Shown: positions 1-20,000 of the stretch, in pieces | Numbering within the stretch: position 1 is the first letter of the stretch | How the letters are laid out: each line of letters starts with the position of its first letter | From: an uncultured virus (IMG/VR IMGVR_UViG_3300027779_000002) | Taxonomy: Duplodnaviria > Heunggongvirae > Uroviricota > Caudoviricetes | IMG/VR virus record: IMGVR_UViG_3300027779_000002 | Length of the DNA: 20,000 bases | Strand: one strand, 5' to 3' | Notes under the pieces: model-generated | Told to the model about the DNA's origin: nothing | Databases searched by the model: none | What the model saw: only the letters and a program-made list of their open reading frames with translations | Translations under genes and position numbers: made by a program

Positions 1-3000
1 TACTGTCTACCGCTATATCGTTAGAGTTTGCAGTTATACCATCACCACCGATAACATTTAATGTAACACTACCGGATGTTCCACCACCTGTCATACCTGT
101 TCCTGCAGTAACTGCTGTTATATCTCCCGTATTAGTAGTGTATCCGCTATTATTAGTCCATTGTGATATATTACCTGATTTATTAGTGAATGTTTGTGTA
201 TTACTTGCAGTAGTTGTACCCGTATTAGTAGTGTATCCTGAACCGTTTGTTAATTGATTGTTATTGGTAATGTAATTAGCATTAGTTGCACCTGTATAGC
301 CCAAGTTAGCTAATGTCATTGTTCTAGTAGTAAACGCAGTTATAACACCTTGTGTTAAACTTACAGTAGATAGAACTGCACCGCCTGCACTAATACCAAT
401 GTTAGTTGATGTTCCTATAGTGGTATTACCTGAACTAGTTACATAACCTGCACCATTAGTAAGTTGATTATTATTAGTAATAGTACAATTCAATGTAACA
501 GTACCTGAAGTACCGCCTCCACTCATTCCTGTCCCCGCAGTAACACCTGTAATATCACCTACATTAGTAGTATAACCTGCTCCGTTAGTTAACTGATTGT
601 TATTGGTAATTGTATTACTAAATACTGTTCCTGTTAAAAGAAGTCCTGTCCCTGCTGTGTATGTGGTATTCACATACGAGGTGATGTATCCTGCACCGTT
701 AGATAATTGATTGTTATTAGTTGGAAATCCTGTAGCAGTTAATGTACTTAATCCATTTCTTGTTAACGTAAGTGTACCTGAAGCATAAGAAGCTCCTGAA
801 ACGTAATAATTACTATTGTCGTCATTTGGATTAAAAGTAATTGTATCTGTGGTAGCATTAGTAGTAATAGTCATACCGCCGGCAGCAACAAAAGTTAAAG
901 TATCATTATTACTATCAGCAACAACAGTAGATTGACCGCTTACTGCAATATTTTTAAATATAGCCTGTGATGAACCTTTATCTGCATTAGTTAAAGTTAC
1001 TGTTCCACTTGTCCCTCCACCTGACATACCACTTCCTGCGGTAACTCCTGTAATATCACCTACATTTGTAGTATAACCTGCCCCATTAGTAAGTTGATTG
1101 TTATTAGTAATAGTACAATTTAACGTAACTGTTCCACTTGTTCCTCCCCCCGACATACCTGTTCCGGCTGTTACACCTGTAATATCACCTACACTTGTAG
1201 TATATCCTGAGTCATTAGTCCATTGAGAAATGTTACCACCTTTATTTGTAAACGTCTGTGAGTTAGATGCTGTAGTAGTACCCGTATTAGTAGTATAACC
1301 TGCACCGTTTGTTAATTGGTTGTTGTTAGTTACATTTGTTGCACCATTAGCTACATTAAGACTTGACCTAAGTTGTGCCATTGTAGAAGGTCTAACATAG
1401 TTGTTAGTTGCAGTATCTACCTGAGTCATTACATATCCAATAGATGCATTAGTAGAGTCATACTCACTTCTAAGTAACCTAACATTAATATCACCACTAC
1501 TATCTCTTGCCACAACAGTACTTACCGTTGATGCTGTAACAGCATTAACATTTAACGTAACTGTTCCACTTGTTCCTCCTCCTGTCAAATAACTTCCCGC
1601 AGTAACACCTGTAATATCACCTACACTTGTAGTATAACCTGCACCGTTTGTTAATTGGTTGTTATTAGTAATAGTACAATTTAATGTAACTGTTCCACTT
1701 GTCCCACCGCCTGACATACCTGTTCCTGCGGTAACTCCTGTAATATCACCTACACTTGTAGTATATCCTGAGTCATTAGTCCATTGAGAAATGTTACCTG
1801 ATTTATTAGTAAAGGTTTGAGAATTACTAGCTGTTGTTGTACCTGTATTGGTTGTATAGCCTGAACCGTTAGTTAATTGATTATTGTTGGTTATACTATT
1901 ATTAAAAGTAACTGTTTCATTACTAGCTTGATTCAGCGTAATTGTTCCTCCACCCGTTAACCCTGTCCCCGCAGTAAGTGTAATAGTTGCATTGTTAACT
2001 GTAGGTAATGAGCCTGAAGTTATATATCCTGAATTATTAGTCCATTGTGATATATTACCTGATTTGTTTGTAAAAGTTTGAGTATTGGTTGCATTAGTAA
2101 AACCTGTAGCAGTTAATGTACTTAATCCATTTCTTGTTAATGTTAATGTACCACCTGATTGTGATGCACCTGAAACGTAATAATTACTATTATCATCATT
2201 TGGATTAAAAGTAATAGTATCTGTAGTAGCATTTGTAGTAATAGTCATACCACCTGCAGCAACCAAAGTTAAAGTATCATTATTACTATCAGCAACAACA
2301 CTAGATTGACCACTTACTGCTATATTCTTAAATATAGCTTGTGATGAACCTTTGTCTGCGTTAGTTAAAGTTACCGTTCCGCTTGTACCACCACCTGACA
2401 TACCACTTCCTGCAGTAACACCTGTGATATCACCTACACTTGTAGTATATCCTGAATCATTAGTCCATTGAGATATATTGCCTGACTTATTAGTAAAGGT
2501 TTGTGAGTTAGAAGCTGTAGTAGTTCCTGTATTTGTAGTGTAACCTGCTCCGTTAGTTAACTGATTATTATTAGTTATTGTATTATTTAATGTTACACTT
2601 CCTGATGTACCTCCACCGCTTAATCCTGTGCCTGCCACAACAGCTGTTATATCACCTTGTGGTAATGTTGATAAAAGTATTAAATCACCTTCACCATTTA
2701 TATAATCATCTGTATCCCCTTGAAAAGTTATAGCTAATGTTCCACTAGTTGTTACAGGAGTACTTATAATAGATATTGCATCTCCTTGAGAGGATAATCC
2801 TACACTTGTTACAGTTCCTGTATTTGTAGTGTAACCTGCTCCGTTAGTTAACTGATTATTGTTAGTAATAGTATTATTAAAAGTAACAGTTTCGTTAGAA
2901 GCTTGATTTAAAGTAATAACACCACCCCCTGACAATCCTGTTCCGGCTGATAGTGTTATTGTTGCATTATTAACTGTAGGTAAACTACCTGCTGTTATAT

Positions 3001-4063
3001 ATCCTGCACCATTACTTAACTGATTATTGTTAGTTGGAAAACCCGTTGCTGTTAAGGTGCTTAATCCATTTCTTGTTAACGTAAGTGTGCCTGAAGCATA
3101 AGAAGCTCCTGAAACATAATAGTTTTCGTTGTCATCAGTTCCTGTAATAGTAAGCACATCTCCTACAACAGCTGTTGACACACTACCTGCGCCAACAATA
3201 GATAAAGTATCATTATTAGTGTCAGCTACAGCTGTACCTGAATCAGATGCTACATTTTTAAATATATTTTGTGACGAACCTTTATCACTATTTGTAACTG
3301 TAACAGTACCTGAAGTACCCCCTCCACTTATACCTGAACCTGCTGTTACGCCTGTGATATCACCTACACTTGTAGTGTATCCGCTATCATTAGTCCATTG
3401 TGATATATTGCCTGACTTATTAGTAAAGGTTTGAGAATTACTAGCTGTTGTAGTACCTGTGTTAGTAGTGTATCCACTATTGTTTGTCCATTGAGAAATG
3501 TTCCCTGACTTATTAGTAAAAGTTTGACTATTACTAGCTGTTGTTGTACCTGTGCTAGTTGTGTATCCTGCTCCGTTAGTTAATTGATTGTTATTAGTAA
3601 TAACAATTGTAGTATTAGGTACATTTAATTCAGCTCTCATTTCAGAAGCAGTTAATGCTCCTAAATCTGATGAGGTTTTCCATTGTGGAAATTCATTAGC
3701 ATTTATTGTTCCTGATTTAGTTACTGTACCTACATTAGTAGTGTATCCTGCTCCGTTAGTTAACTGATTATTGTTAGTTATAGAGTTATTGAATGTAACC
3801 GTTTCAGCACTAGATTGATTCAGCGTAATTGTTCCTCCTCCGGTTAACCCTGTTCCCGCTGTAAAAGTAATTGTTGAATTATTAACTGTGGGTAAAGAAG
3901 CCGATGTTATATAGTTTTGACTTTTTACCCATGCAGTTGATGGAATTCTTGTTGAATTATCTGATGTTGAAGGAGCGGTTACAATACCCGCTGCAAGAGT
4001 CGTTGTGTCACTAACAGATAAAGTACCCGTTATTGCTTGTCCTCTTAAAAATCTTATTGCCAT
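1..4063 (-). CDS. Very long T/N/G/S-rich modular repeat protein, putative tail/capsid fibre (>=1354 aa, 3' end outside window)
   Basis: ATG at 4063 (MAIRFLRGQAITGTLSV...). Manual reading stays open and in frame to the window edge (...NDIAVDS). Absent from the ORF track because there is no stop in the window. Recurrent modules TNNNQLTNGAGYTT, QTFTNKSGNISQWTNDSGY and GDITGVTAGTGMSGGGTSGTVTL are typical of phage fibre shafts. Confidence 0.85.
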   Translation of the reverse strand, partial: MAIRFLRGQAITGTLSVSDTTTLAAGIVTAPSTSDNSTRIPSTAWVKSQNYITSASLPTVNNSTITFTAGTGLTGGGTITLNQSSAETVTFNNSITNNNQLTNGAGYTTNVGTVTKSGTINANEFPQWKTSSDLGALTASEMRAELNVPNTTIVITNNNQLTNGAGYTTSTGTTTASNSQTFTNKSGNISQWTNNSGYTTNTGTTTASNSQTFTNKSGNISQWTNDSGYTTSVGDITGVTAGSGISGGGTSGTVTVTNSDKGSSQNIFKNVASDSGTAVADTNNDTLSIVGAGSVSTAVVGDVLTITGTDDNENYYVSGASYASGTLTLTRNGLSTLTATGFPTNNNQLSNGAGYITAGSLPTVNNATITLSAGTGLSGGGVITLNQASNETVTFNNTITNNNQLTNGAGYTTNTGTVTSVGLSSQGDAISIISTPVTTSGTLAITFQGDTDDYINGEGDLILLSTLPQGDITAVVAGTGLSGGGTSGSVTLNNTITNNNQLTNGAGYTTNTGTTTASNSQTFTNKSGNISQWTNDSGYTTSVGDITGVTAGSGMSGGGTSGTVTLTNADKGSSQAIFKNIAVSGQSSVVADSNNDTLTLVAAGGMTITTNATTDTITFNPNDDNSNYYVSGASQSGGTLTLTRNGLSTLTATGFTNATNTQTFTNKSGNISQWTNNSGYITSGSLPTVNNATITLTAGTGLTGGGTITLNQASNETVTFNNSITNNNQLTNGSGYTTNTGTTTASNSQTFTNKSGNISQWTNDSGYTTSVGDITGVTAGTGMSGGGTSGTVTLNCTITNNNQLTNGAGYTTSVGDITGVTAGSYLTGGGTSGTVTLNVNAVTASTVSTVVARDSSGDINVRLLRSEYDSTNASIGYVMTQVDTATNNYVRPSTMAQLRSSLNVANGATNVTNNNQLTNGAGYTTNTGTTTASNSQTFTNKGGNISQWTNDSGYTTSVGDITGVTAGTGMSGGGTSGTVTLNCTITNNNQLTNGAGYTTNVGDITGVTAGSGMSGGGTSGTVTLTNADKGSSQAIFKNIAVSGQSTVVADSNNDTLTFVAAGGMTITTNATTDTITFNPNDDNSNYYVSGASYASGTLTLTRNGLSTLTATGFPTNNNQLSNGAGYITSYVNTTYTAGTGLLLTGTVFSNTITNNNQLTNGAGYTTNVGDITGVTAGTGMSGGGTSGTVTLNCTITNNNQLTNGAGYVTSSGNTTIGTSTNIGISAGGAVLSTVSLTQGVITAFTTRTMTLANLGYTGATNANYITNNNQLTNGSGYTTNTGTTTASNTQTFTNKSGNISQWTNNSGYTTNTGDITAVTAGTGMTGGGTSGSVTLNVIGGDGITANSNDIAVDS
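55..3900 (-). repeat. Dispersed coding repeats within the fibre gene
   Basis: Counted by eye: ~13 NNNQL(T/S)NG(A/S)GY, ~7 TFTNK(S/G)GNISQWTN(D/N)SGY and ~9 GDIT(G/A)V(T/V)AG..GGGTSG copies. A larger duplicated block lies at ~730-1060 and ~2100-2435. Confidence 0.9.
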
Positions 4064-4083
4064 AAGGTGTTAAATTAAATTAT

Positions 4084-6189
4084 TTACGCCACCTTAGTCA
4101 CTAAACATCTTGCTCCGCCTGTTGCAATTGCTGATGTGCTTAATAATGTTAAGGCATTTGTACTTGTTCTTTGAACTTCTAAAAATAAAGTATCGTAAGG
4201 TGATGCAGTATCATATACCTGTACTATTACATCTCTTGTTCCAAAGTTATGTGATACAGTATAAGATGTAGCAGAATTATTACCAATGTCCTGTGCATAC
4301 TGATGGCTTGAACCAATACATGATTCAACCGCTGTACAGAAGTCAGATACTTGTGATGCAGTAATACTTATTGCTGTAGCTGCCATTGCAGTTACAAGAC
4401 CTTTAGCATTTACTGTAGCTGTTAAAGTATTAGATGCACTTCCGAAACTTCCTACAGTACTATTAACAGTTGCAAGAGTTAAACCTGAGGTTACGTCAGC
4501 TGAACCATCAAAAGTTACCGACCATGCAGCATCTCCTGTTGCTGAAATACTTCTTGCAGTAATAAGTTTTGTTGCTGTAGCAGCATTACCTGTAATCTCT
4601 CCTTCTACGTTTGCTATTAATGTTCCTACGTTTGCTATTGTAGCTGTAGTAGTTGGTTTAGATGTAGCATTACCTAATCTAAATTTAGGAGCTGATGCTG
4701 TAGATGATGATGAAGCGTCATAAAATAAAGTAGGGTAATAATCTGTTGCTGATATTACATAGTTACCAAAGAACCCTATATCAACTGAGTTAGCACCTCC
4801 GCCTGCAACGTCATTGCCATTGGCGTACTCCATCATGTTATCTTCAATAGATACTGTTGTACTATTTATAGTAGTTGTAGTTCCATTAACCGTTAAGTTA
4901 CCTGCGATAGTTACTGTTGAACCATCATCAGTAACAGACGAGTCAGTTAACTGATTGTTACCATTATCCCATTTCATTAATGCATTTGCACTTAATGAAC
5001 CTGAATTTTTAAGACTTAAACTTCCTGTAGTAGTTATTGTACCTCCTGTTAAACCACCTGTTGCAGGTGTTGCTATTGAAGTAACTGTACCACCTGAAGA
5101 ATCAAAAGGTAAATCTGAAACTAATCCTTTCTTAATTTCATCATCATCAATATCACTATACCATATAACATCTGTTGTTTCAATAGCTGTACCTTTTAAA
5201 TTGGTAGCCGCTTCAATGGCATTATTTGTACTTGTATATAAAATTCCTAAATCACTTATTGCAACTGCACCATTATAAGATGTCATGGTTAAACCTGTAG
5301 ATGCTGTAAGAGTCTTTAAAATTCCTCCTAATGCTATACCACTTATTGTGCTGTTAGCTAATCTGTCATTTTGTATTCCACCTGCAGAAATTCCAAACGC
5401 TAGTGTTCCTGATGTTGTAATAGGAGAACCTGAAACAGTTAATCCGTTAGCTCCCGAAGCAGCTACACTTGTAACTGACCCTGAAGTAACTGTTTGTAAT
5501 GCACCTGTACCGTCAATAAATTGACTTGTACTACCTGCTCCTGCTAATGTTAAAGTTCCTGAACTTGTTACAGGACTATTAGTTACTGTAAATGCTGACG
5601 GTGCTGCTAAGCCTACACTTGTTACACTTCCTGAAGGAATAGTAGGGAAAGTTTCTAAAGTACCATCTCCTCTTATATATTGGCTTGTACTACCTGCTCC
5701 TGTTATTGCAATAGTACCTGCTCCTGTTATCGGTGAATTAGCTACACTAAATGCTGCCGGCATAGAAACTCCAACACTTGTTACAGTTCCACCACCAATA
5801 GCTGCACTTAATTGAGATAAGTTTACAAATTTTACATCATTATCACTCTCATCAGATATCATTACTCTATCTGTTGTTGCTAAAGTTAATAATGTACCAT
5901 CACCTGCTGCTAATATAATATTGTCAGTACCTGCATAATCAACAGCAACTGTAACGTTGCCTGAAGTTCCTCCTCCGGAAAGACCTGTTCCTGCAGTAAC
6001 ACCTGAAATATCTCCTGTACCATCTAATGAAATCCAAGCTGTACCATTATAGTATTTAAATGTGTTGGATGTTGTGTTATAGATAAATTGCCCTTCATAT
6101 CCTGCAGGGTCAGATGCGAGGTTTTGAGCTTTTACATTTTGTAACTCATTTGTCGTTAAATCTAGGTTGTTTAAAAATCTAATTGCCAT
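4084..6189 (-). CDS. Putative phage fibre/structural protein (701 aa)
   Basis: G/T/S-rich, with GTVTSV...SPITxSGTL repeats. C-terminal 'YTVSHNFGTRDVIVQVYD' domain is of a type common in phage fibres. Shares the MAIRFL N-terminus with the downstream gene. Confidence 0.75.
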   Translation of the reverse strand: MAIRFLNNLDLTTNELQNVKAQNLASDPAGYEGQFIYNTTSNTFKYYNGTAWISLDGTGDISGVTAGTGLSGGGTSGNVTVAVDYAGTDNIILAAGDGTLLTLATTDRVMISDESDNDVKFVNLSQLSAAIGGGTVTSVGVSMPAAFSVANSPITGAGTIAITGAGSTSQYIRGDGTLETFPTIPSGSVTSVGLAAPSAFTVTNSPVTSSGTLTLAGAGSTSQFIDGTGALQTVTSGSVTSVAASGANGLTVSGSPITTSGTLAFGISAGGIQNDRLANSTISGIALGGILKTLTASTGLTMTSYNGAVAISDLGILYTSTNNAIEAATNLKGTAIETTDVIWYSDIDDDEIKKGLVSDLPFDSSGGTVTSIATPATGGLTGGTITTTGSLSLKNSGSLSANALMKWDNGNNQLTDSSVTDDGSTVTIAGNLTVNGTTTTINSTTVSIEDNMMEYANGNDVAGGGANSVDIGFFGNYVISATDYYPTLFYDASSSSTASAPKFRLGNATSKPTTTATIANVGTLIANVEGEITGNAATATKLITARSISATGDAAWSVTFDGSADVTSGLTLATVNSTVGSFGSASNTLTATVNAKGLVTAMAATAISITASQVSDFCTAVESCIGSSHQYAQDIGNNSATSYTVSHNFGTRDVIVQVYDTASPYDTLFLEVQRTSTNALTLLSTSAIATGGARCLVTKVA

Positions 6190-10736: not shown

Positions 10737-11714
10737 TTAAAATGTTGCTATATCTGCTTTCTTCCAAGTGTTTGTTGCTACACATACATAAATTGCATCT
10801 GATGCAAATCTAATGTCTCCTGTTACTCCTGCTGCTGTAGCTGAAGCCGGTGCAGTTTCTATTGCCGAAACACCAAATGTAGGTGACTTAACTGCTGTAC
10901 TAAATACTGCTCCATCAGCGTCTAATGACATTTCATCATTAACGCCTAAGTTGCCACTTCTTGAAATTTTAAATTTATTTGAATCTCCTCTGTCAATTCC
11001 AATAGAAATATCTGCTTGTCCTTGAGTTTCAAATGAAATTTTTGCATCTGCGTCAGCTCCTGTATTTTGATTGTGAATTAATAATCCGATTGCTACGTTT
11101 CCTTTATCTTGTTGTAAGTTGATACCTAATGGGTTTTCTCCTGTACTATCTCCTACTAGAAGGTTTCCTGATGCTACCATATCTACTGCTGATACATTTC
11201 CACTAAATGCTCCACCTACGCCTGATACGTCTCCACTAAATGCTCCACCTACACCTGCTACGTCTCCACTAAATGTTCCATCTACACCTGATACATTTCC
11301 ACTAAATGCTCCACCTACACCTGATACGTCTCCACTAAATGCTCCACCTACACCTGATATATTTCCTGAAGCAGCTACATCTACAGCTGATACGTTTCCA
11401 CTTATAGTACAGTCACCTGAACTTGTAAGAGCAGCACATTGTACTTCTCCGGTTAAGTTCATATCACCTGTTACAGTAATTAATGCTCCTGCTTCTGCCA
11501 TAATAGAATCAGTCAAGGTATTAGAATCTACCCATTTGGATATTTTCCCTGCTGTTCCTGAACCGTCAACCCCACCACCAACTACGACAGTATCTAGGAT
11601 ATCTTGCATTGTAAATATTGTTCTTTGTGCATTCAATGATGCTGAACCTCTGTTTTCTGTATCAACAGTAGATTTTACTGTATGAAATTTTTGACTGCTT
11701 GGTATTGTTGCCAT
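10737..11714 (-). CDS. Putative virion fibre/spike protein with 11-aa tandem repeats (325 aa)
   Basis: G(D/N)VSGVGGAFS repeats and 'GSGTAGKISKW' fibre motif. C-terminal 'APASATAAGVTGDIRFASDAIYVCVATNTWKK' domain is common in phage fibres. Confidence 0.7.
   Translation of the reverse strand: MATIPSSQKFHTVKSTVDTENRGSASLNAQRTIFTMQDILDTVVVGGGVDGSGTAGKISKWVDSNTLTDSIMAEAGALITVTGDMNLTGEVQCAALTSSGDCTISGNVSAVDVAASGNISGVGGAFSGDVSGVGGAFSGNVSGVDGTFSGDVAGVGGAFSGDVSGVGGAFSGNVSAVDMVASGNLLVGDSTGENPLGINLQQDKGNVAIGLLIHNQNTGADADAKISFETQGQADISIGIDRGDSNKFKISRSGNLGVNDEMSLDADGAVFSTAVKSPTFGVSAIETAPASATAAGVTGDIRFASDAIYVCVATNTWKKADIATF
11188..11365 (-). repeat. 33-nt coding tandem repeat (~5 copies plus degenerate flanks)
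   Basis: Unit CCACTAAATGCTCCACCTACACCTGATACGTCT and variants on the + strand. Confidence 0.9.
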
Positions 11715-13397: not shown

Positions 13398-13832
13398 ATG
13401 CAAAAAGACTATTTAAAATATTGGAGGGTTGTTCGTTATTTTGTAAAATCAAAATATAAAATATCTACCGGCGAATTAGACATGCTTTTATTTTTATATT
13501 CAGAAAAATATTTTGGTAAAGATAAATTTAAAGAGTATGATGAATTATTAAGTTGGAATGTAAATCGTTTTGACCAACTGCTCAAACGAGGTTGGATAGA
13601 AGTCTTTCGCAAAAGAGTAGGTAAAAATAAAACGCTTTACAGTTTAAGTTTTAAAGCAAACAGAATGATACATTCTATTTATGAAAAATTAGAAGGCGGA
13701 GCTATTCCTGAATCTCCTACATCAAATCCTATGTTTAAAGGTAATGTGACTTATACAGACAAGATATATCGTAATCAAATAAAAGAGATGAACAAGGTTA
13801 TACAACAACAACAACGTCTTGCTCCCGAATAA
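13398..13832 (+). CDS. Putative winged helix-turn-helix (MarR-like) DNA-binding protein
   Basis: 'ISTGELDMLLFLY', 'FDQLLKRGWIEV' and 'LYSLSFKANRMI' follow the MarR/wHTH pattern. Only gene against the local strand. Confidence 0.6.
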   Translation: MQKDYLKYWRVVRYFVKSKYKISTGELDMLLFLYSEKYFGKDKFKEYDELLSWNVNRFDQLLKRGWIEVFRKRVGKNKTLYSLSFKANRMIHSIYEKLEGGAIPESPTSNPMFKGNVTYTDKIYRNQIKEMNKVIQQQQRLAPE

Positions 13833-14064
13833 TAGTACAAGCTGTGCCTTCAAGCACCATTTGATATCCTGCACGCTTGTCATAGTATATTATATCATTA
13901 CTATTAATTGACTTTACTTCTGTGCCGGGAGTTATAACTTTAGCTTTTTTATATCTAAATTGGTCAGCGTCATGTTCAGACAATAATAATCCTGACTCTG
14001 TCTTTAGTTCTTCTTTAATGTTTTCTACTATAAGGTATTTATTAATTGCTATCATTTGATTCAT
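13798..14064 (-). CDS. groES: Co-chaperonin GroES (Cpn10)-like
   Basis: Mobile loop 'KTESGLLLSE' and C-terminal 'IIREQDVV'. Overlaps the groEL end; the start could be 14055. Confidence 0.85.
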   Translation of the reverse strand: MNQMIAINKYLIVENIKEELKTESGLLLSEHDADQFRYKKAKVITPGTEVKSINSNDIIYYDKRAGYQMVLEGTACTIIREQDVVVVV

Positions 14065-15661
14065 ATGTTCTTGCCATTGTTATAATAGCGTTAGTAGATA
14101 ATATAGTTATTGCTACAGAAACTGCATTTTGTAAAGCGTTCTTAGTTACTTTCATTGGGTCAATGATTCCCATGTCAATCATATTTCCATGTACTTCGTT
14201 CTTAACATCATAGCCTACTCCATTATGTTTATTAATTGGATATTTTTCTTCTATGGTTGCTCCTGCGTTTTCTAGTATTTGTGAAAGTGGTGCAGATAAT
14301 GCACCATATAAAATTGCGTCAGCAATTTTATGTGAATTTTTTTCTTTTTTTGATATGTATGCAGAACCAATATCATACAATGCTACTCCACCACCCGGTA
14401 AGATACCTTCTAATAGTGCGGAACGTACAGCACAGACTGCATCATCTACCCTGTCATAGAGTTCTTTTTGTTCAATGTCGGTTTGACCTCCTACATATAT
14501 AACTCCAATACCACCGCTTAATGATGCTATACGAGATAGTATAAAATCTTTGTCATTTTTATTTGAAGCATTTTCATGTGCTTGCCACAATTGTAAAACT
14601 CTCTTTCCTACTTTAGCAACAGACTCAGTTGATTTAATTAATATACTAGACTCTTTACCAATTATACATTTATCAGCATGACCTAAGTCACTAAACGAAA
14701 TTAATGATAAGTCATCACCTGTTTTTTCAGAAAAGTAATTTGCTCCAACCGATACTGCAATATCTTGCATAAGCTCATGTTGTTTGTATCCAAACTGTGG
14801 AGGACCTATAACACAAACTTGTAAACCATTCTTGACTACGTTTGCTGCTAAAGTATTTACAACATTAATAGACATAGGTGCAATAATTAATAATTTCTTT
14901 TGCTCATTAATAATTGGCTTTAGTATATTCTCTATTGATAATACGTTTGATATCTCTGCATCACTTACTAAGACATGTACGTTATCTAATATACACTCGT
15001 CTTTCTTTTGATTATTAATAAATAAAGGCGATGTCCACCCTCTCTCAATTTTAATTCCGTTTGTGGTCTCGCTATAAGTGGTACTTGAATCCGATTTCTC
15101 TACAGTAACTATTCCGTTTTTACCAACCTCCTTATATGTATCAGCAATAACTTTACCAATTACTTTGTCATTGTTCGCAGATATAACAGCTACATCAAGT
15201 AATCTTTTATTAGTAATTTTTTTTGAAACCTTTTTTAAATTGTCTATTACTACCTCAGTTTCTTTTAATACCTCTTTTAATACCTCCGCTCTGTTTGTGG
15301 TATCATCCATTAAGGCATCGCCTTGCTTAACTAATGCTTCAGTAAGAACAATAGCAGTAGTTGTGCCATCACCCGCAGAGGTTGCAGTATTATCCGCAGC
15401 CTGCTTCATCATACGAACCGCAAGGTTCTCAACAGGGTCTAATAAATCTACAGCTTTAGCTACGGTTACTCCGTCTTTAGTTACGGTTAACCCGCCTGTT
15501 ACATATTGTGATTCGATGAGGACTGTATTCCCTCTAGGACCTAATGTGCTTTTAACTGCGTTTGCGATTTGTGTAATTCCGGAAATAAGCTTTGCTCTTC
15601 CGTTTTCACCAAAGGATAATTCTTTGGGATTAAAGCCTGATGGCATGTTGATTTGATTCAT
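14042..15661 (-). CDS. groEL: Phage-encoded chaperonin GroEL (Cpn60)
   Basis: AVKSTLGPRG, TKDGVTVAK, AGDGTTTA, ISANND, RVDDAV, EGILPGGG and GIIDP motifs. No GGM tail. Confidence 0.97.
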   Translation of the reverse strand: MNQINMPSGFNPKELSFGENGRAKLISGITQIANAVKSTLGPRGNTVLIESQYVTGGLTVTKDGVTVAKAVDLLDPVENLAVRMMKQAADNTATSAGDGTTTAIVLTEALVKQGDALMDDTTNRAEVLKEVLKETEVVIDNLKKVSKKITNKRLLDVAVISANNDKVIGKVIADTYKEVGKNGIVTVEKSDSSTTYSETTNGIKIERGWTSPLFINNQKKDECILDNVHVLVSDAEISNVLSIENILKPIINEQKKLLIIAPMSINVVNTLAANVVKNGLQVCVIGPPQFGYKQHELMQDIAVSVGANYFSEKTGDDLSLISFSDLGHADKCIIGKESSILIKSTESVAKVGKRVLQLWQAHENASNKNDKDFILSRIASLSGGIGVIYVGGQTDIEQKELYDRVDDAVCAVRSALLEGILPGGGVALYDIGSAYISKKEKNSHKIADAILYGALSAPLSQILENAGATIEEKYPINKHNGVGYDVKNEVHGNMIDMGIIDPMKVTKNALQNAVSVAITILSTNAIITMARTYESNDSN

Positions 15662-15683
15662 AGTAGATTGTATTAAATTTAAA

Positions 15684-15691
15684 CAAAGATA
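15684..15691 (-). promoter_or_regulatory. -7 promoter box TATCTTTG upstream of groEL
   Basis: Exact motif 22 nt upstream of ATG 15661. Confidence 0.65.
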
Positions 15692-15903
15692 AAAAAAAGA
15701 ATTAAGACTTGTGTCGTTATGTTGTTTTTTGTTTTACTCTACTCTCTCTCTCTATTTTTATTAAACGCATATATTAATTTTTTATTGCAGTTGCTTTTTC
15801 AAATTAACATTTCAACATTTATTTTTATAACTTATTGATTTATAATTATTTATCAATTTAATAATCAACATTAAATTAACACAGTATTGTTATTATATAA
15901 CAT

Positions 15904-15932
15904 AAAAAAAGAGGATTAATTAAAATCCCCTC
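15904..15932 (-). terminator. Putative intrinsic terminator
   Basis: Minus strand GAGGGGATT-TTAATT-AATCCTC (bulged stem) followed by T7, ~35 nt after the stop at 15969. Confidence 0.55.
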
Positions 15933-15968
15933 TCTTCATCAACACACTTACTAATCAATCACTATACT

Positions 15969-16205
15969 TTAATACTCATAAATGTTTCTGTCTCCATCCA
16001 TTCTCATCTTAGCTCTTTCAATTCCGTCAGCTATACAATCTATTTTGTATTGTTTTTTCATTTGCTGTCTATACATTGCAGCTTGAGCAATTCCTGTAAC
16101 TCCGTCAGGTCTTGCATTTATCTCACGACCATTTTTTATATATAGTCCTTCAACATTATTTGAGATTTTATTATCTCTACTCATTTGTTTGTAAGGTTTT
16201 CTCAT
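15969..16205 (-). CDS. Hypothetical protein (78 aa, MRKPYKQ...)
   Basis: Start reassigned from 16283 to 16205. A near-consensus TATCTTTA box at 16222-16229 lies just upstream. Confidence 0.7.
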   Translation of the reverse strand: MRKPYKQMSRDNKISNNVEGLYIKNGREINARPDGVTGIAQAAMYRQQMKKQYKIDCIADGIERAKMRMDGDRNIYEY

Positions 16206-16259
16206 CACATTTTGTTTTCTGTAAAGATACAAAAAAAATTGTAAGATATGTGTAGTATT

Positions 16260-16720
16260 TAGACTCCCCCCCCTCACACGCAATCACCCGACAAAAGAAA
16301 ACTCAAAAAAAAAGTTGACCCCCCCTGAAGATTTAAATGTTTACGTTCAGATTTTTTAGGAAAACGCCTGACCCCTGTCACCCTCTACCCCTCCCCCCCC
16401 TGTACACCTACTGCTCTACGTTTGTCGTACCACATACCCACACACACACACGCATACACGCCTACCTTCCCCCTATTATATCCCTATATGAATCTTATAA
16501 TATCATAACAAGCTAAGAGATATAAGAGTGCATCCCCTCAACGTATCTTTGACATAAATAAATCGTAGTGAAATGTACTAAGCTAACACGCTAGTTATCA
16601 ATGAGTTACAATATCAATTAATAAATAGACAATAAATTATACTAAAATTGTACGATAATTCAAATAATTGTTGTAGTATTGCATTATATTACTAATTAAG
16701 GTAGTATAAACCAAAACTAT
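16260..16720. other. Non-coding strand-switch region with C-runs and a CA tract (candidate genome end/packaging region)
   Basis: No credible ORF, strong C skew on the + strand, and genes diverge on both sides. Confidence 0.5.
16544..16551 (+). promoter_or_regulatory. -7 promoter box TATCTTTG facing the early region
   Basis: Exact motif. A second near-match TAGTATTG lies at 16674-16681. Confidence 0.45.
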
Positions 16721-16725
16721 ATAAT

Positions 16726-16965
16726 ATGAAAAACAATAAAATAATAGCAGAGTTTATGGGTGTTGGTAAGCACTACGAGGCACAGAGCAGTAATCCATTT
16801 AACCAATACCACCAATCTTGGGATTGGCTAATGCCTGTAATAGCAAAGTTAGTGCAGAATTTTGGAAGTGGTTGGAAATTTGAGCAAGGATACGACTTAA
16901 ATGTCAGATACAAAGAAGTAGTAAAGTTTATTAAACAAGAAAACGAAGATAAATTAAATAAATAA
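16726..16965 (+). CDS. Phage hypothetical protein (79 aa)
   Basis: 'NKIIAEFMG...YHQSWDWLMPVI' motif recalled from Bacteroidota phages. Confidence 0.8.
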   Translation: MKNNKIIAEFMGVGKHYEAQSSNPFNQYHQSWDWLMPVIAKLVQNFGSGWKFEQGYDLNVRYKEVVKFIKQENEDKLNK

Positions 16966-16973
16966 AAAACATT

Positions 16974-17906
16974 ATGAAAAAATTCAAAAAAATCAACGTC
17001 TTTGAAGCTGTCAACAAACAGGTTACAGATGGGTTAAAAAAATCAGGGATGTCTTGGTTCAAGGCTTGGACAGACTCAAACGGAAACATTCAAGACCCTA
17101 TTAACAGATGTACTAAGAGAGGTTACAACGGAGTAAACATCTTTATCTTAAACGCTACAGCATCTATAGAAGGTTATCCATCTAACGAGTGGGTTAGCTT
17201 TGCTGAAGCTAAGAAATTAGGCAGTAACGTTAAGAAGGGAGAAAAGTCAACTATGATAGTATATTGGAACATCGCTTACAGAGTAGAAGACAAGTGGTTT
17301 CCTAATCTAACTGCACTAAACAAGGCAGGTTATACGGAAGAAGATGCTAAAAAATTATTTACATTAAAACAATTCAGAGTATTTAATATTGCACAATGTG
17401 ATAATTTAGAAGCGTGTAGAGAAATACCAACAGAGAGTGAAGATAACCTTGACATTCAACCAATAGAGTCTGCTGAAGCTATTGTAAACGGATACAAGAA
17501 CGCTCCTAAAATTGTAGAGAGACCACAAGATTCTGCTTACTATACACCTTCAAGAGATACCATCACAATGCCGACTAAAGAGCAGTTTGTTGAGCGTACC
17601 TCGATAGATGATTTCTATAAGGTTTTATTTCATGAGATGATTCATTCAACAGGACATTCATCTAGATTAGATAGAAAACTTGTAGGTGTTACAGCTGACA
17701 AAGTTTCTTATTCAAAAGAAGAATTGGTTGCTGAGATTGGTGCAATGTATTTAACTTCGATTGCCCACCTGAATCCTAAAGACCATGAGAGACAGAGTCA
17801 AGCGTATATCAACGGATGGATTAAGTTCATTAAATCTAGTCATGAAAAAGCATTGATATCAGCAATGACCAAAGCAAGACAGGGTGTTGATTTAATCCTT
17901 AAATAG
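16974..17906 (+). CDS. ardC: ArdC-like anti-restriction protein (ssDNA-binding N-domain plus zincin-like metallopeptidase domain)
   Basis: YNGVN, W.SF..AKKLG..VKKGEKS, FRVFNIAQ, AYYTPSRDTITMP, FHEMIHSTGH.SRLDR and YSKEELVAEIGA motifs. Confidence 0.9.
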   Translation: MKKFKKINVFEAVNKQVTDGLKKSGMSWFKAWTDSNGNIQDPINRCTKRGYNGVNIFILNATASIEGYPSNEWVSFAEAKKLGSNVKKGEKSTMIVYWNIAYRVEDKWFPNLTALNKAGYTEEDAKKLFTLKQFRVFNIAQCDNLEACREIPTESEDNLDIQPIESAEAIVNGYKNAPKIVERPQDSAYYTPSRDTITMPTKEQFVERTSIDDFYKVLFHEMIHSTGHSSRLDRKLVGVTADKVSYSKEELVAEIGAMYLTSIAHLNPKDHERQSQAYINGWIKFIKSSHEKALISAMTKARQGVDLILK

Positions 17907-17911
17907 CAGAC

Positions 17912-17938
17912 TATCCTGAGCATGATACCAAACTGCTC
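17912..17938 (+). ncRNA. Compact H-type pseudoknot, copy 1
   Basis: TATC/GATA stem and GAGCA/TGCTC stem. Copy 2 shows the compensatory GAGTA/TACTC. Confidence 0.65.
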
Positions 17939-17987
17939 CTGTCCACAAGTGAGTGCTTGTGCTGATGAGTTCAAAAGAACGAAACAG
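17939..17987 (+). ncRNA. Type III hammerhead ribozyme, copy 1
   Basis: CTGTC^ CACAAG-TGAGTG-CTTGTG CTGATGA GTTC-AAAA-GAAC GAAACAG. Complete core; GUC cleavage predicted after 17943. Confidence 0.92.
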
Positions 17988-18012
17988 AAATATTAAATTA
18001 ATAAATAACATT

Positions 18013-18402
18013 ATGTACACAAGAGAACAATTAAGTAAAATGACAACTGAAGAATTTTTAACAGCTATGGGTTTTGAGATTCAAATCGGCAATATTTGGA
18101 ATCGGTCAGCAGACAAATACGCATGGACAGAGACTTCAAAAGATGGTTATGATTTGTATGTACTATCAGACAATAATTCTAATCCTAGCATCTGTGATGA
18201 CATTCATTATGATGAATACGGATTCATTGATAGCTTCAAAGAATACATTCAACACTCCTGTTATTGTGAAGAAACAATCGCTATTGAAGAACACCTTTTA
18301 GAAGATGTAGATGCATTATTCGATGAAGATGAAATGTTTGATATTGCAGTTAAATTAGACAAAGCAGAGGAAGAAGAATTTGAAGAGGAAGTTACAGAGT
18401 GA
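18013..18402 (+). CDS. Highly acidic protein (129 aa), candidate DNA mimic
   Basis: Start reassigned to ATG 18013 because the track start lies inside the ribozyme. 36 D/E vs 8 K/R by hand count. Confidence 0.75.
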   Translation: MYTREQLSKMTTEEFLTAMGFEIQIGNIWNRSADKYAWTETSKDGYDLYVLSDNNSNPSICDDIHYDEYGFIDSFKEYIQHSCYCEETIAIEEHLLEDVDALFDEDEMFDIAVKLDKAEEEEFEEEVTE

Positions 18403-18433
18403 TTTGGTAGTTTCGTTTATTTTTCGTACATTG
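18403..18433 (+). promoter_or_regulatory. Possible promoter (TTTG...TACATTG)
   Basis: TTTG at 18403-18406 and an imperfect -7 box ending at 18433, 3 nt before pseudoknot copy 2. Confidence 0.35.
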
Positions 18434-18436
18434 CAA

Positions 18437-18463
18437 TATCCTGAGTAAGATACTAAACTACTC
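18437..18463 (+). ncRNA. Compact H-type pseudoknot, copy 2
   Basis: TATC CT GAGTA A GATA CTAAAC TACTC. Confidence 0.65.
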
Positions 18464-18512
18464 CTGTTTCGAGATGAGTGTCTCGACTGATGATTCCAAA
18501 AGGATGAAACGG
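18464..18512 (+). ncRNA. Type III hammerhead ribozyme, copy 2
   Basis: CTGTT^ TCGAGA-TGAGTG-TCTCGA CTGATGA TTCC-AAAA-GGAT GAAACGG. Core intact, GUU triplet, U-U at the base of stem II. Confidence 0.82.
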
Positions 18513-18533
18513 AAACTTAAATTAAATAACATT

Positions 18534-18764
18534 ATGAAAAAATTACACATTTATTTTATGAACGGATTTACATTCTTAATTGCTTTAGGAGTGTTGGTTA
18601 TGGTAGCCAATGTATTAGTACACATACTAAAAACAGACTTGATTTTTCTAGGAGACTTCCTAGCGTGGATGATTGGAGTAGGTGTCTTTGTTGGTTCTAG
18701 CTTTTTAGTATTAGGATTATTAATAGAAAACCACAAACAAGATTTAAAAGAACTTAAAAACTAA
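18534..18764 (+). CDS. Small membrane protein with two TM helices (76 aa)
   Basis: Start reassigned to ATG 18534, which has the same AAATAACATTATG context as 18013. Two hydrophobic segments. Confidence 0.75.
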   Translation: MKKLHIYFMNGFTFLIALGVLVMVANVLVHILKTDLIFLGDFLAWMIGVGVFVGSSFLVLGLLIENHKQDLKELKN

Positions 18765-18767
18765 ACA

Positions 18768-18914
18768 ATGGCTAAAACACAATTAGATGATTTAAACGAC
18801 AAGATAAAAAACTTAAACTCTTTAAGGATACTTGCAGAGGGAGATGAAAAACTTCTTGCTCAAATACAAAACCTCATCGACAAAACAATATCAACCAAAC
18901 TTTGGATAACTTAA
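18768..18914 (+). CDS. Hypothetical protein, 48 aa (MAKTQLDDLNDKIKNL...)
   Basis: Manual translation; fills the gap between genes. Confidence 0.7.
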   Translation: MAKTQLDDLNDKIKNLNSLRILAEGDEKLLAQIQNLIDKTISTKLWIT

Positions 18915-18926
18915 AAATAAATAACT

Positions 18927-19154
18927 ATGGAAAATATATTGCAAAATTTACAGAAATTAAAAGACAACACAAAACAATCTAGAACACATTCAATTGTTGA
19001 TGAGATTAATGAAAAACTAACACATTTAAAAAACCTTAACAAATCTAAACTTGAATGGTACAATAATTTTGTCGATTTCGTTGAGGAATATGATGATGGA
19101 ATTTATAACGATGCGTGTGAATACGCTGATAAAATCAAAGAAGATGAAAATTAA
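18927..19154 (+). CDS. Hypothetical protein (75 aa)
   Basis: ORF track; A-rich start context. Confidence 0.75.
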   Translation: MENILQNLQKLKDNTKQSRTHSIVDEINEKLTHLKNLNKSKLEWYNNFVDFVEEYDDGIYNDACEYADKIKEDEN

Positions 19155-19428
19155 AATACAACAACGAAGTGTCTACCACAAATTTGCTGAGGTAGAAATA
19201 GAGATTCCGAATGACATCAACGAAGATGAAATTGTTGATTACCTACATGACAACGAAAATAAATGGACAGATAAAATTGATGATCAAATTATATTTGCTG
19301 ATTATGAGTTTGGTTTTGGTACAGATTCAGATGCCAATCATCATAACAATTCATTTTTCAATGAGCCTGAATCAGAATCTGAATGGAGATATGATTGTCC
19401 ACAATTAAAAACAGGAGGGCATTTATAA
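19144..19428 (+). CDS. Acidic hypothetical protein (94 aa, MKIKIQQRSVYHK...)
   Basis: Start reassigned to 19144 to give a short overlap with the previous gene. Confidence 0.75.
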   Translation: MKIKIQQRSVYHKFAEVEIEIPNDINEDEIVDYLHDNENKWTDKIDDQIIFADYEFGFGTDSDANHHNNSFFNEPESESEWRYDCPQLKTGGHL

Positions 19429-19473
19429 CGGATAGCATGGTGCAAGGGAGGTTCGATTCCTCCCTATCCACAA
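19429..19473 (+). ncRNA. Minimal tRNA-like element (acceptor stem plus T arm only)
   Basis: GGATAG/CTATCC stem stacked on GGAGG-TTCGATT-CCTCC. Only 11 nt where the D and anticodon arms would be. Confidence 0.6.
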
Positions 19474-19505
19474 TAGCAATATTGCTAGAATTAAAATTAA
19501 AAATT

Positions 19506-19682
19506 ATGAAAGTAAAAGAATTAATTGAAAAATTAAAAAAACTCCCACAAGATTTACCTGTAAGAACAGAGAATAAAGATTTTAAGGGAGAGAATGAATG
19601 GGTTGATAATGTGGAATATTCAGAAACAGGTCAATCAGGATATGAAATAGAAGGCGAAGTTAGACTAACAACATCTTTATAA
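19506..19682 (+). CDS. Phage hypothetical protein (58 aa, MKVKELIEKLKKLPQDLPV...)
   Basis: Common phage small-protein N-terminus; start reassigned to 19506. Confidence 0.8.
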   Translation: MKVKELIEKLKKLPQDLPVRTENKDFKGENEWVDNVEYSETGQSGYEIEGEVRLTTSL

Positions 19683-19704
19683 TAATAAATAAAATCAAAA
19701 ACAA

Positions 19705-19794
19705 ATGGAACAAATAGAAATAGTGTATTTTTTACTTGGAATACTTTTAGGATTACAAACTGCAATGTTAATAACGCAAAACAAAAACAAATAA
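19705..19794 (+). CDS. Single-TM micro-protein, 29 aa (MEQIEIVYFLLGILLGLQTAMLITQNKNK)
   Basis: Manual translation; A-rich start context. Confidence 0.6.
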   Translation: MEQIEIVYFLLGILLGLQTAMLITQNKNK

Positions 19795-19796
19795 AA

Positions 19797-19973
19797 ATGA
19801 ACAATAAAATTTTTACAATGTATTTGAATCAAGTAAAAGAAAATAAAAGATTGCGTAAATTTGTAAAACAACATACTGAATCAAAAAAGAAAATCTTTAA
19901 CGATTGGAGCAATATAGAAAAAAAATTAATAGATGGTCAATGGTGGGTTAAATCCAAAGATGCATTAAAATAA
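19797..19973 (+). CDS. Basic hypothetical protein (58 aa)
   Basis: Manual translation MNNKIFTMYLNQ...KDALK. Confidence 0.65.
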   Translation: MNNKIFTMYLNQVKENKRLRKFVKQHTESKKKIFNDWSNIEKKLIDGQWWVKSKDALK

Positions 19974-19980
19974 ACAAACT

Positions 19981-20000
19981 ATGAATATATTAAATCAAGA
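19981..20000 (+). CDS. Start of next gene (truncated by window)
   Basis: ATG after an A-rich spacer, MNILNQ... Confidence 0.4.

What the first reader, a model, noticed from the sequence alone, without database searches (positions are those of the whole stretch)
17912..18533. Repeated pseudoknot + type III hammerhead ribozyme cassette punctuating the phage early region
Seen: two ~100-nt intergenic elements (17912-18012 and 18437-18533) share one layout: pseudoknot, hammerhead, then an identical AAATAACATTATG start context. Stems differ but pairing is kept: stem I CACAAG/CTTGTG vs TCGAGA/TCTCGA; stem II TTC/GAA vs TCC/GGA; pseudoknot GAGCA/TGCTC vs GAGTA/TACTC. The CTGATGA/GAAA core and the loops TGAGTG and AAAA are invariant. 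Established: these loops fit the URNmYN / RmA loop-loop contact of natural hammerheads, and hammerheads occur in phage intergenic regions. Inference: a protein-independent module that cuts the early transcript into units, each left with a pseudoknot-protected 3' end and a 5'-OH hairpin leader, functionally like RNase III sites in T7 early mRNA. I cannot name the fused pseudoknot.
Basis: partly seen in the sequence, partly recalled or inferred. Interest (0 to 1): 0.92.

Follow-up and report, generated by a model that had tools for sequence, protein, structure and literature searches.

The report
Pseudoknot-capped hammerhead ribozymes in phage
Two self-cutting RNA motifs, each preceded by a tiny uncatalogued RNA knot, lie between early genes of an uncultured phage and most likely cut the message into gene-sized pieces whose new ends are shielded from decay; the cutting motif is a known kind, while the knot, which related phages often replace with a plain hairpin, has no known function.

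Summary
Both elements are real: a 27-nt H-type pseudoknot (17912-17938, 18437-18463) abutting a type III hammerhead (17939-17987, 18464-18512), with predicted cuts after 17943 and 18468. A viral scan gave 79 distinct fused copies; stem 1, left free in the pattern, paired in 78. The fusion is not obligate. The knot mostly stands alone (2 of 139 have a hammerhead), just after stop codons and often just before tRNA genes. Of 128 hammerheads of this family found without regard to the knot, 8 carry the knot and 99 carry a strong hairpin in the same slot. Knots and hairpins both start about 5-8 nt after the stop codon. Best reading: stop, cap, ribozyme, leader; a terminator-like protected 3' end made by cleavage, with the cap also insulating ribosomes. 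Hammerhead punctuation of phage transcripts is known since 2011 (PMC3088659). The knot matches no Rfam family and none of the papers I could search. Nothing is shown at the bench. This scan noted the cassette and the lone knot before on other DNA (e1-6223504, e1-5977232); the interchangeable cap slot did not appear in the notes I saw.

The parts
16974..17906 (+). ArdC-like anti-restriction gene (310 aa); its stop codon ends 6 nt before the 3-bp core of pseudoknot 1
   Evidence: PHROG 7245 E 1.2e-60; Pfam ArdcN 81.8 bits and MPTase-PolyVal 98.3 bits, both above cut-off
17912..17938 (+). Pseudoknot cap 1: S1 17912-15/17924-27, L1 CU, S2 17918-22/17934-38, A-rich L3
   Evidence: sequence; covariation with each stem left free in scans
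17939..17987 (+). Type III hammerhead 1: stem III CUGU/ACAG, cut predicted after C17943 (GUC), 6-bp stem I with loop UGAGUG, core 17962-68, 4-bp stem II with loop AAAA
   Evidence: Rfam RF00008 18.1 bits; identical in relative L003
17988..18012 (+). A/U-rich leader without Shine-Dalgarno, 25 nt to the start codon
   Evidence: same kind of context at cassette-free starts
18013..18402 (+). 129-aa acidic protein of unknown function; the only gene on the predicted 525-nt fragment 17944-18468
   Evidence: ORF; no PHROG or Pfam family
18437..18463 (+). Pseudoknot cap 2, 34 nt after the stop at 18402; S2 GAGUA/UACUC (U-G in relative L003, U-A here)
18464..18512 (+). Type III hammerhead 2: cut predicted after U18468 (GUU; GUA in L003), U10.1-U11.1 mismatch, U-G pair in stem III
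   Evidence: Rfam RF00008 28.4 bits; U-U at 10.1-11.1 in 64 of 128 family members
18534..18764 (+). 76-aa hydrophobic protein of unknown function, first gene behind cut 2
   Evidence: ORF; no family

Best explanation
Each element is a two-part gene-boundary module on the early transcript: stop codon, short spacer, stable cap, type III hammerhead, leader, start codon. The hammerhead cuts co-transcriptionally without any protein (inferred from an intact core and conserved stems). The upstream piece then ends in the cap plus a 5-nt tail with a 2',3'-cyclic phosphate, like the end left by a terminator but without stopping transcription; the downstream piece starts with a 5'-OH directly on the stem I hairpin. 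The cap's job is to hold off 3'-to-5' exonucleases, and by lying just outside the terminating ribosome it probably also keeps ribosomes off the ribozyme. The pseudoknot is a free-standing, very compact gene-end motif of many phages that was recruited several times into this cap slot, where most relatives use a GC-rich hairpin. Here the two cuts free the ardC message and a 525-nt single-gene message. Shown: structure, conservation, position, interchangeability. Inferred: cleavage, nuclease resistance, any effect on expression.
For: Structure: stem 1 free, 136 of 139 distinct hits pair at all three positions in 16 combinations; stem 2 free, 32 of 47 hits pair 5 of 5 and most of the rest look like chance hits in coding DNA; fused scan, stem 1 pairs in 78 of 79 and stems I and III parse in 76 of 79. 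Three fused hammerheads pass Rfam's RF00008 cut-off. Position: 91 of 130 lone knots lie 0-19 nt after a stop of a long open frame against 18 of 135 in an antisense control; 13 of 136 have a tRNA 5' end 4-13 nt downstream, 1 has a tRNA upstream, none antisense, so the knot sits 5' of two unrelated kinds of cut site. Slot: of 128 hammerheads, 100 have a fold of -10 kcal/mol or better in the 50 nt upstream against 31 in the next 50 nt (z at or below -2: 88 against 17), 81 of the 100 end 0-2 nt from stem III and only 9 have a U-tract; 8 have the knot, none has it further upstream. One contig carries a hairpin-capped and a knot-capped hammerhead 760 nt apart. Knots and hairpins share the spacing from the stop: 49 of 77 fused knots and 46 of 99 hairpins start 5-8 nt after it. 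Clustered prophage hammerheads cleave in vitro and in E. coli and flank ardA (PMC3088659). PNPase needs a 3'-OH and single-stranded RNA, RNase E/G prefer a 5' monophosphate (PMC3014915; PMC3710370).
Against: No cleavage or stability data. Both window copies score below Rfam's cut-off. The hammerhead fold is about 3.3 kcal/mol above the predicted minimum for both cores and the whole elements fold no better than shuffles (z -1.32, -0.44; the program cannot form the knot). Copy 2 combines GUU, U-U and a U-G pair and may be slow. 21 of 128 hammerheads have neither knot nor strong hairpin within 50 nt. Most lone knots (about 120 of 136) have neither tRNA nor hammerhead close behind, so their cut site, if any, is unknown. 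RNase II and RNase R are indifferent to the 3' phosphate, and a 5'-OH can be an entry for RNase J1 (PMC3997798). The host is only inferred to be Bacteroidota.
Confidence: 0.65

Rival explanations
1. The cap is mainly a translation barrier (a ribosome termination structure): it stops post-termination ribosomes from scanning on and re-initiating or from unfolding the ribozyme or tRNA behind it; nuclease resistance is secondary.
For: Sharp lower edge of the stop-to-knot distance: 5 of 100 under 6 nt, 66 of 100 at 6-10 nt; same edge for hairpin caps. PMC7518266 places such structures at the edge of the stretch shielded by a terminating ribosome and starts its folding window 9 nt from the first base of the stop. 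Copy 1 lies exactly 6 nt after the stop.
Against: The edge is equally explained by packing: as close to the gene as possible without being melted. The tight 3' spacing (0-2 nt to stem III, 4-13 nt to tRNA) points to the cut end. Copy 2 lies 34 nt after its stop.
Confidence: 0.17
2. The cap is a folding insulator or coaxial brace: it ties up upstream sequence or stacks on the weak 4-bp stem III so that the hammerhead folds and cuts.
For: Gap of 0-1 nt in 52 of 75 fused copies; the cores alone have competing folds.
Against: The knot is conserved mostly where no ribozyme exists; gaps of 8-16 nt occur in 9 of 75.
Confidence: 0.08
3. The knot binds a ligand or a protein (aptamer, gene-32-like operator, or antitoxin mimic) and gates cleavage or translation.
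For: Strong sequence conservation beyond pairing: C-U in L1 and AAAC in L3 across phages with different hosts; small pseudoknots serve as operator in T4 gene 32 and as antitoxins.
Against: It is tied to the upstream stop rather than to a downstream gene class, stands before tRNAs, and is replaced by unrelated hairpins. L1/L3 conservation also fits base triples of compact knots (PMC10321173). Part of this conservation was imposed by my patterns.
Confidence: 0.05
4. The paired hammerheads excise the 525-nt unit and re-ligate it into a circular mRNA.
For: In the window the 3' end CUGU of copy 2 pairs perfectly with ACAG of copy 1; circles were raised as a possibility in PMC3088659.
Against: Only 12 of 20 adjacent hammerhead pairs are cross-compatible, against 0.70 for random pairs.
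Confidence: 0.03
5. The knot promotes stop-codon readthrough or frameshifting.
For: Spacing of 6-10 nt after a stop and a luteovirus-like size.
Against: 77 of 100 stops are UAA; the readthrough frame stays open 90 nt past the knot in 11 of 100; a slippery heptamer is found in 9 of 136; in the window the next gene is out of frame.
Confidence: 0.02

Closest known systems
Type III hammerhead ribozymes (Rfam RF00008) with the loop 1/loop 2 contact of Dufour et al. (PMC2632901)
   Same: Topology, core, U16.1-A15.1, H17, loop 1 beginning with U and with a penultimate pyrimidine, purine-rich loop 2 ending in A.
   Different: DNA phage intergenic setting; minimal 49-nt form; frequent U10.1-U11.1; window copies below the Rfam cut-off; preceded by a cap.
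Clustered prophage hammerheads (Perreault et al. 2011, PMC3088659)
   Same: Several hammerheads flank single genes, also an anti-restriction gene; proposed to process long transcripts; U10.1-U11.1 seen in nature.
   Different: Their pseudoknots join stems I and II inside the ribozyme; here the knot lies wholly 5' of it. In the passages and section read I saw no upstream cap described, and the motifs were not found in 11 supplement files.
Ribosome termination structure (Chemla et al. 2020, PMC7518266)
   Same: Stable structure starting about 6 nt after a stop codon.
   Different: A statistical folding signal without a conserved fold, not linked to ribozymes.
Compact viral pseudoknots: luteoviral frameshift knots and coremin/xrRNA-C (PMC10321173); T4/T2 gene 32 knot (PMC3014915)
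   Same: Small H-type knot with a short L1 and an A-rich bridging loop; nuclease roadblock or ribosome contact as function.
   Different: Coremin blocks a 5'-to-3' eukaryotic nuclease and needs a second hairpin; frameshift knots follow slippery sites; the gene 32 knot is a 5' operator of one gene.
STAXI motif (Rfam RF01728; PMC2864571)
   Same: Pseudoknots near anti-restriction genes.
   Different: STAXI is two or three tandem knots with another sequence; no Rfam match here.

Membership tests
Hammerhead ribozyme, type III | Core CUGAnGA, GAA-A and U-H cut site | tested here: met
   both copies; invariant in alignment A1
Hammerhead ribozyme, type III | Three stems, I and II closed by loops, III open, kept by covariation | tested here: met
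   (13 of the 14 hammerhead pairs counted vary by paired change or never vary; 10.1-11.1 is unpaired in 17 of 23), 128 of 128 with stem I at least 5 of 6 though not required by the pattern
Hammerhead ribozyme, type III | Rfam RF00008 gathering score 48.5 | tested here: not met
   28.4 and 18.1 bits in the window; met by three knot-fused relatives, 49.7-50.7 bits. The element is filed on core and stems, not as an Rfam-threshold member.
Hammerhead ribozyme, type III | Self-cleavage in Mg2+ | not testable with these tools
   the two RNA runs laid have no cover on either element
Loop-loop hammerheads (Dufour motif) | 5' U and extrahelical pyrimidine in loop 1, R...A loop 2 | tested here: met
   UGAGUG and AAAA against passages of PMC2632901; sequence only
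Pseudoknot-stabilised hammerheads (Perreault 2011) | Base pairing between stem I and stem II regions | tested here: not met
   the knot pairs within itself, 5' of stem III
STAXI motif | Two or three tandem pseudoknots matching RF01728 | tested here: not met
   single knot; no Rfam hit at E up to 10
Any Rfam 15 family for the knot | Covariance-model match | tested here: not met
   a 27-nt knot may score too low for a longer model
Coremin / xrRNA-C | Stalls a 5'-to-3' exonuclease | not testable with these tools
   needs a digestion assay; position 5' of cut sites argues for the other direction
Recoding pseudoknots | Slippery heptamer or open readthrough frame | tested here: not met
   9 of 136 and 11 of 100
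Intrinsic terminators | Hairpin followed by a U-tract | tested here: not met
   no plus-strand terminator-like site in 15600-20000; U-tract in 9 of 100 hairpin caps

The most novel reading that the evidence does not exclude
The knot is an undescribed, very widespread class of phage RNA that works as a minimal 3'-to-5' exonuclease barrier, and phage hammerheads of this family follow a general grammar (stop codon, 5-8 nt, cap, ribozyme) that builds terminator-like protected ends by self-cleavage. That would give a concrete, testable answer to why phages carry intergenic self-cleaving ribozymes: to set the stability of each early gene's message separately.
Probability: 0.45. Interest if true: 0.8.

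Novelty: new variant of a known kind. Interest (0 to 1): 0.6.

Why it matters
A 2019 review calls the role of bacterial and phage self-cleaving ribozymes largely elusive (PMC6765202). A cap found directly 5' of 107 of 128 hammerheads of one family, filled by two unrelated folds and placed at a fixed distance from the stop codon, suggests that the upstream product is meant to survive, and makes the processing hypothesis directly testable by swapping caps. A 27-nt natural 3'-end stabiliser would also be a useful part for RNA engineering.

Tried and rejected
No whole genome is held for this window, so copies outside it could not be counted. Two metatranscriptome runs held 6-8% of the words and were contigs only; neither covers the elements: uninformative. 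BLAST of the element against cultured phages gave only short A/T-rich matches. Searches with two knot variants gave weak hits; of four opened one is a canonical lone knot (cyanophage S-RIM4), two are imperfect variants and one is antisense inside a gene. TAAATA upstream of knots is not a late promoter signal: in 20 of 28 cases it holds the stop codon. Promoter scan was at chance level, 27 against 22.9. STAXI rejected. Thirteen hammerheads with only a weak fold in a 70-nt window were not counted as capped. The knot counts (6 and 4) came from faulty descriptors; (8) replaces them. Paper search returned only unrelated psychology papers; searches found nothing relevant. Circularisation and recoding rejected.

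Full report
Setting. The window is part of a phage: GroEL and GroES on the minus strand, and from 16726 a plus-strand run of small genes with A-rich starts lacking a Shine-Dalgarno. The best GroEL matches among cultured phages are Flavobacterium phages at 37-38%, so a Bacteroidota host is an inference; 'early region' is also an inference from gene size, position and the ArdC-like gene at 16974-17906. A 64.7-kb viral contig (L003) is 90% identical over 16952-18785 and keeps both elements.

Observation. Both elements are as described. Copy 1: knot 17912-17938, hammerhead 17939-17987, GUC cut after 17943. Copy 2: knot 18437-18463, hammerhead 18464-18512, GUU cut after 18468. Rfam gives Hammerhead_3 at 28.4 and 18.1 bits, under the cut-off of 48.5, and nothing for the knot. 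My hammerhead descriptor had 0 hits in 300 Markov mimics of the window. Between the window and L003, copy 1 is identical and the three changes inside copy 2 keep the structure: U-G to U-A in S2, GUA to GUU, U-A to U-G in stem III. U10.1-U11.1 of copy 2 is natural and the best tolerated mismatch according to PMC3088659, and is present in 64 of 128 relatives. Against: the hammerhead fold is not the predicted minimum for either core (-8.6 against -11.9, -7.8 against -11.2 kcal/mol). The shared start context is generic to this phage.

The knot is a real fold. With stem 2 left free and a hammerhead core required, 32 of 47 distinct hits pair 5 of 5, 3 pair 4 of 5, and 12 pair 3 or fewer and look by eye like chance hits in coding DNA. 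On an alignment of 23 of the 49 fused copies, picked by me for equal length, 95.9% of cells pair, 15 of 20 pairs change on both sides, 0 of 500 shuffles reach the paired share and slid controls stay under 47%; these rows were preselected for pairing and two S2 pairs were left out because of a misplaced gap, so the free-stem scans are the fairer test.

The fusion is widespread but optional. A scan for knot plus core gave 102 viral loci and 79 distinct sequences; stem 1 pairs in 78, hammerhead stems I and III parse in 76, both in 75; the gap is 0-1 nt in 52 of these 75; triplets are GUC 38, GUA 30, GUU 7. By eye the knot is joined to at least four hammerhead types with different loops and stem II, which suggests repeated recruitment (no tree was built). 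In bacterial genome contigs 9 of 11 distinct hits are complete, in six records labelled Polynucleobacter, Butyrivibrio, Saccharimonadales, Mycoplasmatota, Flavobacteriales and Firmicutes; whether these are prophages was not checked. Three of them pass the RF00008 cut-off. Yet only 2 of the 139 knots found without regard to a ribozyme have one (3 flagged, 1 false by eye).

Where the lone knot sits. 91 of 130 lie 0-19 nt after the stop of a frame open for at least 120 nt, against 18 of 135 in an antisense control. Of 100 with a stop within 30 nt, 5 are closer than 6 nt and 66 are at 6-10 nt. 13 of 136 lie 4-13 nt before a tRNA gene, 1 lies after one. A canonical lone knot lies between two genes of the cultured cyanophage S-RIM4, 11 nt after a stop.

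What fills the slot when the knot is absent. The 50 nt directly upstream fold at -10 kcal/mol or better in 100, against 31 for the next 50 nt; z at or below -2 in 88 against 17; 81 of the 100 end within 2 nt of stem III, and 9 have a U-tract. Final classes: 8 knot, 99 strong hairpin, 21 neither. Relatedness among these contigs inflates the counts. One contig has both kinds 760 nt apart. Hairpin caps start 5-8 nt after the stop in 46 of 99 and closer in 7; fused knots start 5-8 nt after it in 49 of 77 and never closer. The start codon follows the hammerhead at 20-29 nt in 42 of 75.

Mechanism. The anatomy reads: stop, cap, cut, leader. After cleavage the upstream RNA ends in the cap plus about 5 nt and a cyclic phosphate; the downstream RNA begins with 5'-OH on a hairpin. 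PNPase needs single-stranded RNA and a 3'-OH, and RNase E/G prefer a 5' monophosphate; that 3' exonucleases need an unpaired tail of several bases is recalled, not looked up. I therefore favour end protection (0.65). The sharp spacing from the stop matches the ribosome termination structure of PMC7518266 and supports ribosome insulation as the main rival or a second role (0.17). Recoding and circle formation failed their tests. RNA-level evidence could not be had.

What is known. Clustered hammerheads that flank single prophage genes, including ardA, and cleave in vitro and in E. coli were reported in 2011, and processing into pieces of different stability is a standing proposal. I found no description of this knot or of a cap slot in ten full-text searches (one of them wasted) or in the supplements searched. 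What I saw of each paper: PMC3088659 passages, one part of the results and a motif search of 11 supplement files; PMC2632901 abstract and passages; PMC6765202, PMC3014915, PMC3710370, PMC3997798 passages; PMC10321173 and PMC7518266 abstract and passages; PMC2864571 passages and a motif search of 8 supplement files, one cut; PMC5737381 passages only, supplement unreadable; PMC10690425 passages and 6 supplement files, 3 not searched; Weinberg 2015 not held. Motif searches can miss gapped alignments, and the unseen supplements list many non-cleaving motifs near phage ribozymes, so the knot may already be in print. Earlier notes of this scan describe the same cassette and the lone knot on other genomes; they are not independent support.

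Verdict. Observation confirmed, interpretation partly supported. New variant of a known kind; interest 0.6. The ribozyme is ordinary, the knot and the stop-cap-ribozyme grammar are the part worth testing.

Noticed in passing
window 19430-19470 +: A mini-tRNA mimic 1 nt after the stop at 19428: acceptor-like GGAUAG/CUAUCC and a T-arm GGAGG-UUCGAUU-CCUCC. Conserved in L003 with a compensatory A-U to G-C change; ARAGORN finds no tRNA. Possibly a third, RNase P/Z-dependent punctuation mark in the same transcript.
   Followed up: partly
loci L304-L442: In this hammerhead family the cut triplet goes with the 10.1-11.1 position: 54 of 62 GUA have U-U and 50 of 53 GUC have G-C. Could be descent or a folding constraint.
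   Followed up: no
loci L304-L442, 5' of the hammerhead: A recurrent cap hairpin GUGUC-N4-8-GACAC occurs in 34 of 128; other recurring upstream sequences (L408/L417, L304/L365, L310/L410/L432) may be further uncatalogued folds.
   Followed up: no
loci L092, L111, L112, L124, L132, L134, L143, L154, L163, L170: 10 of the 13 tRNA genes directly behind a lone knot are tRNA-Asp; probably related phages.
   Followed up: no
window 16260-16470: Non-coding stretch rich in C-runs and CA repeats between the minus-strand and plus-strand gene blocks; perhaps a genome end or origin.
   Followed up: no
window 1-6000 and 11148-11411: Long degenerate coding repeats and a 33-nt tandem array on the minus strand, likely tail or surface proteins.
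   Followed up: no
window 13798-15661 -: Phage-encoded GroES and GroEL.
   Followed up: partly
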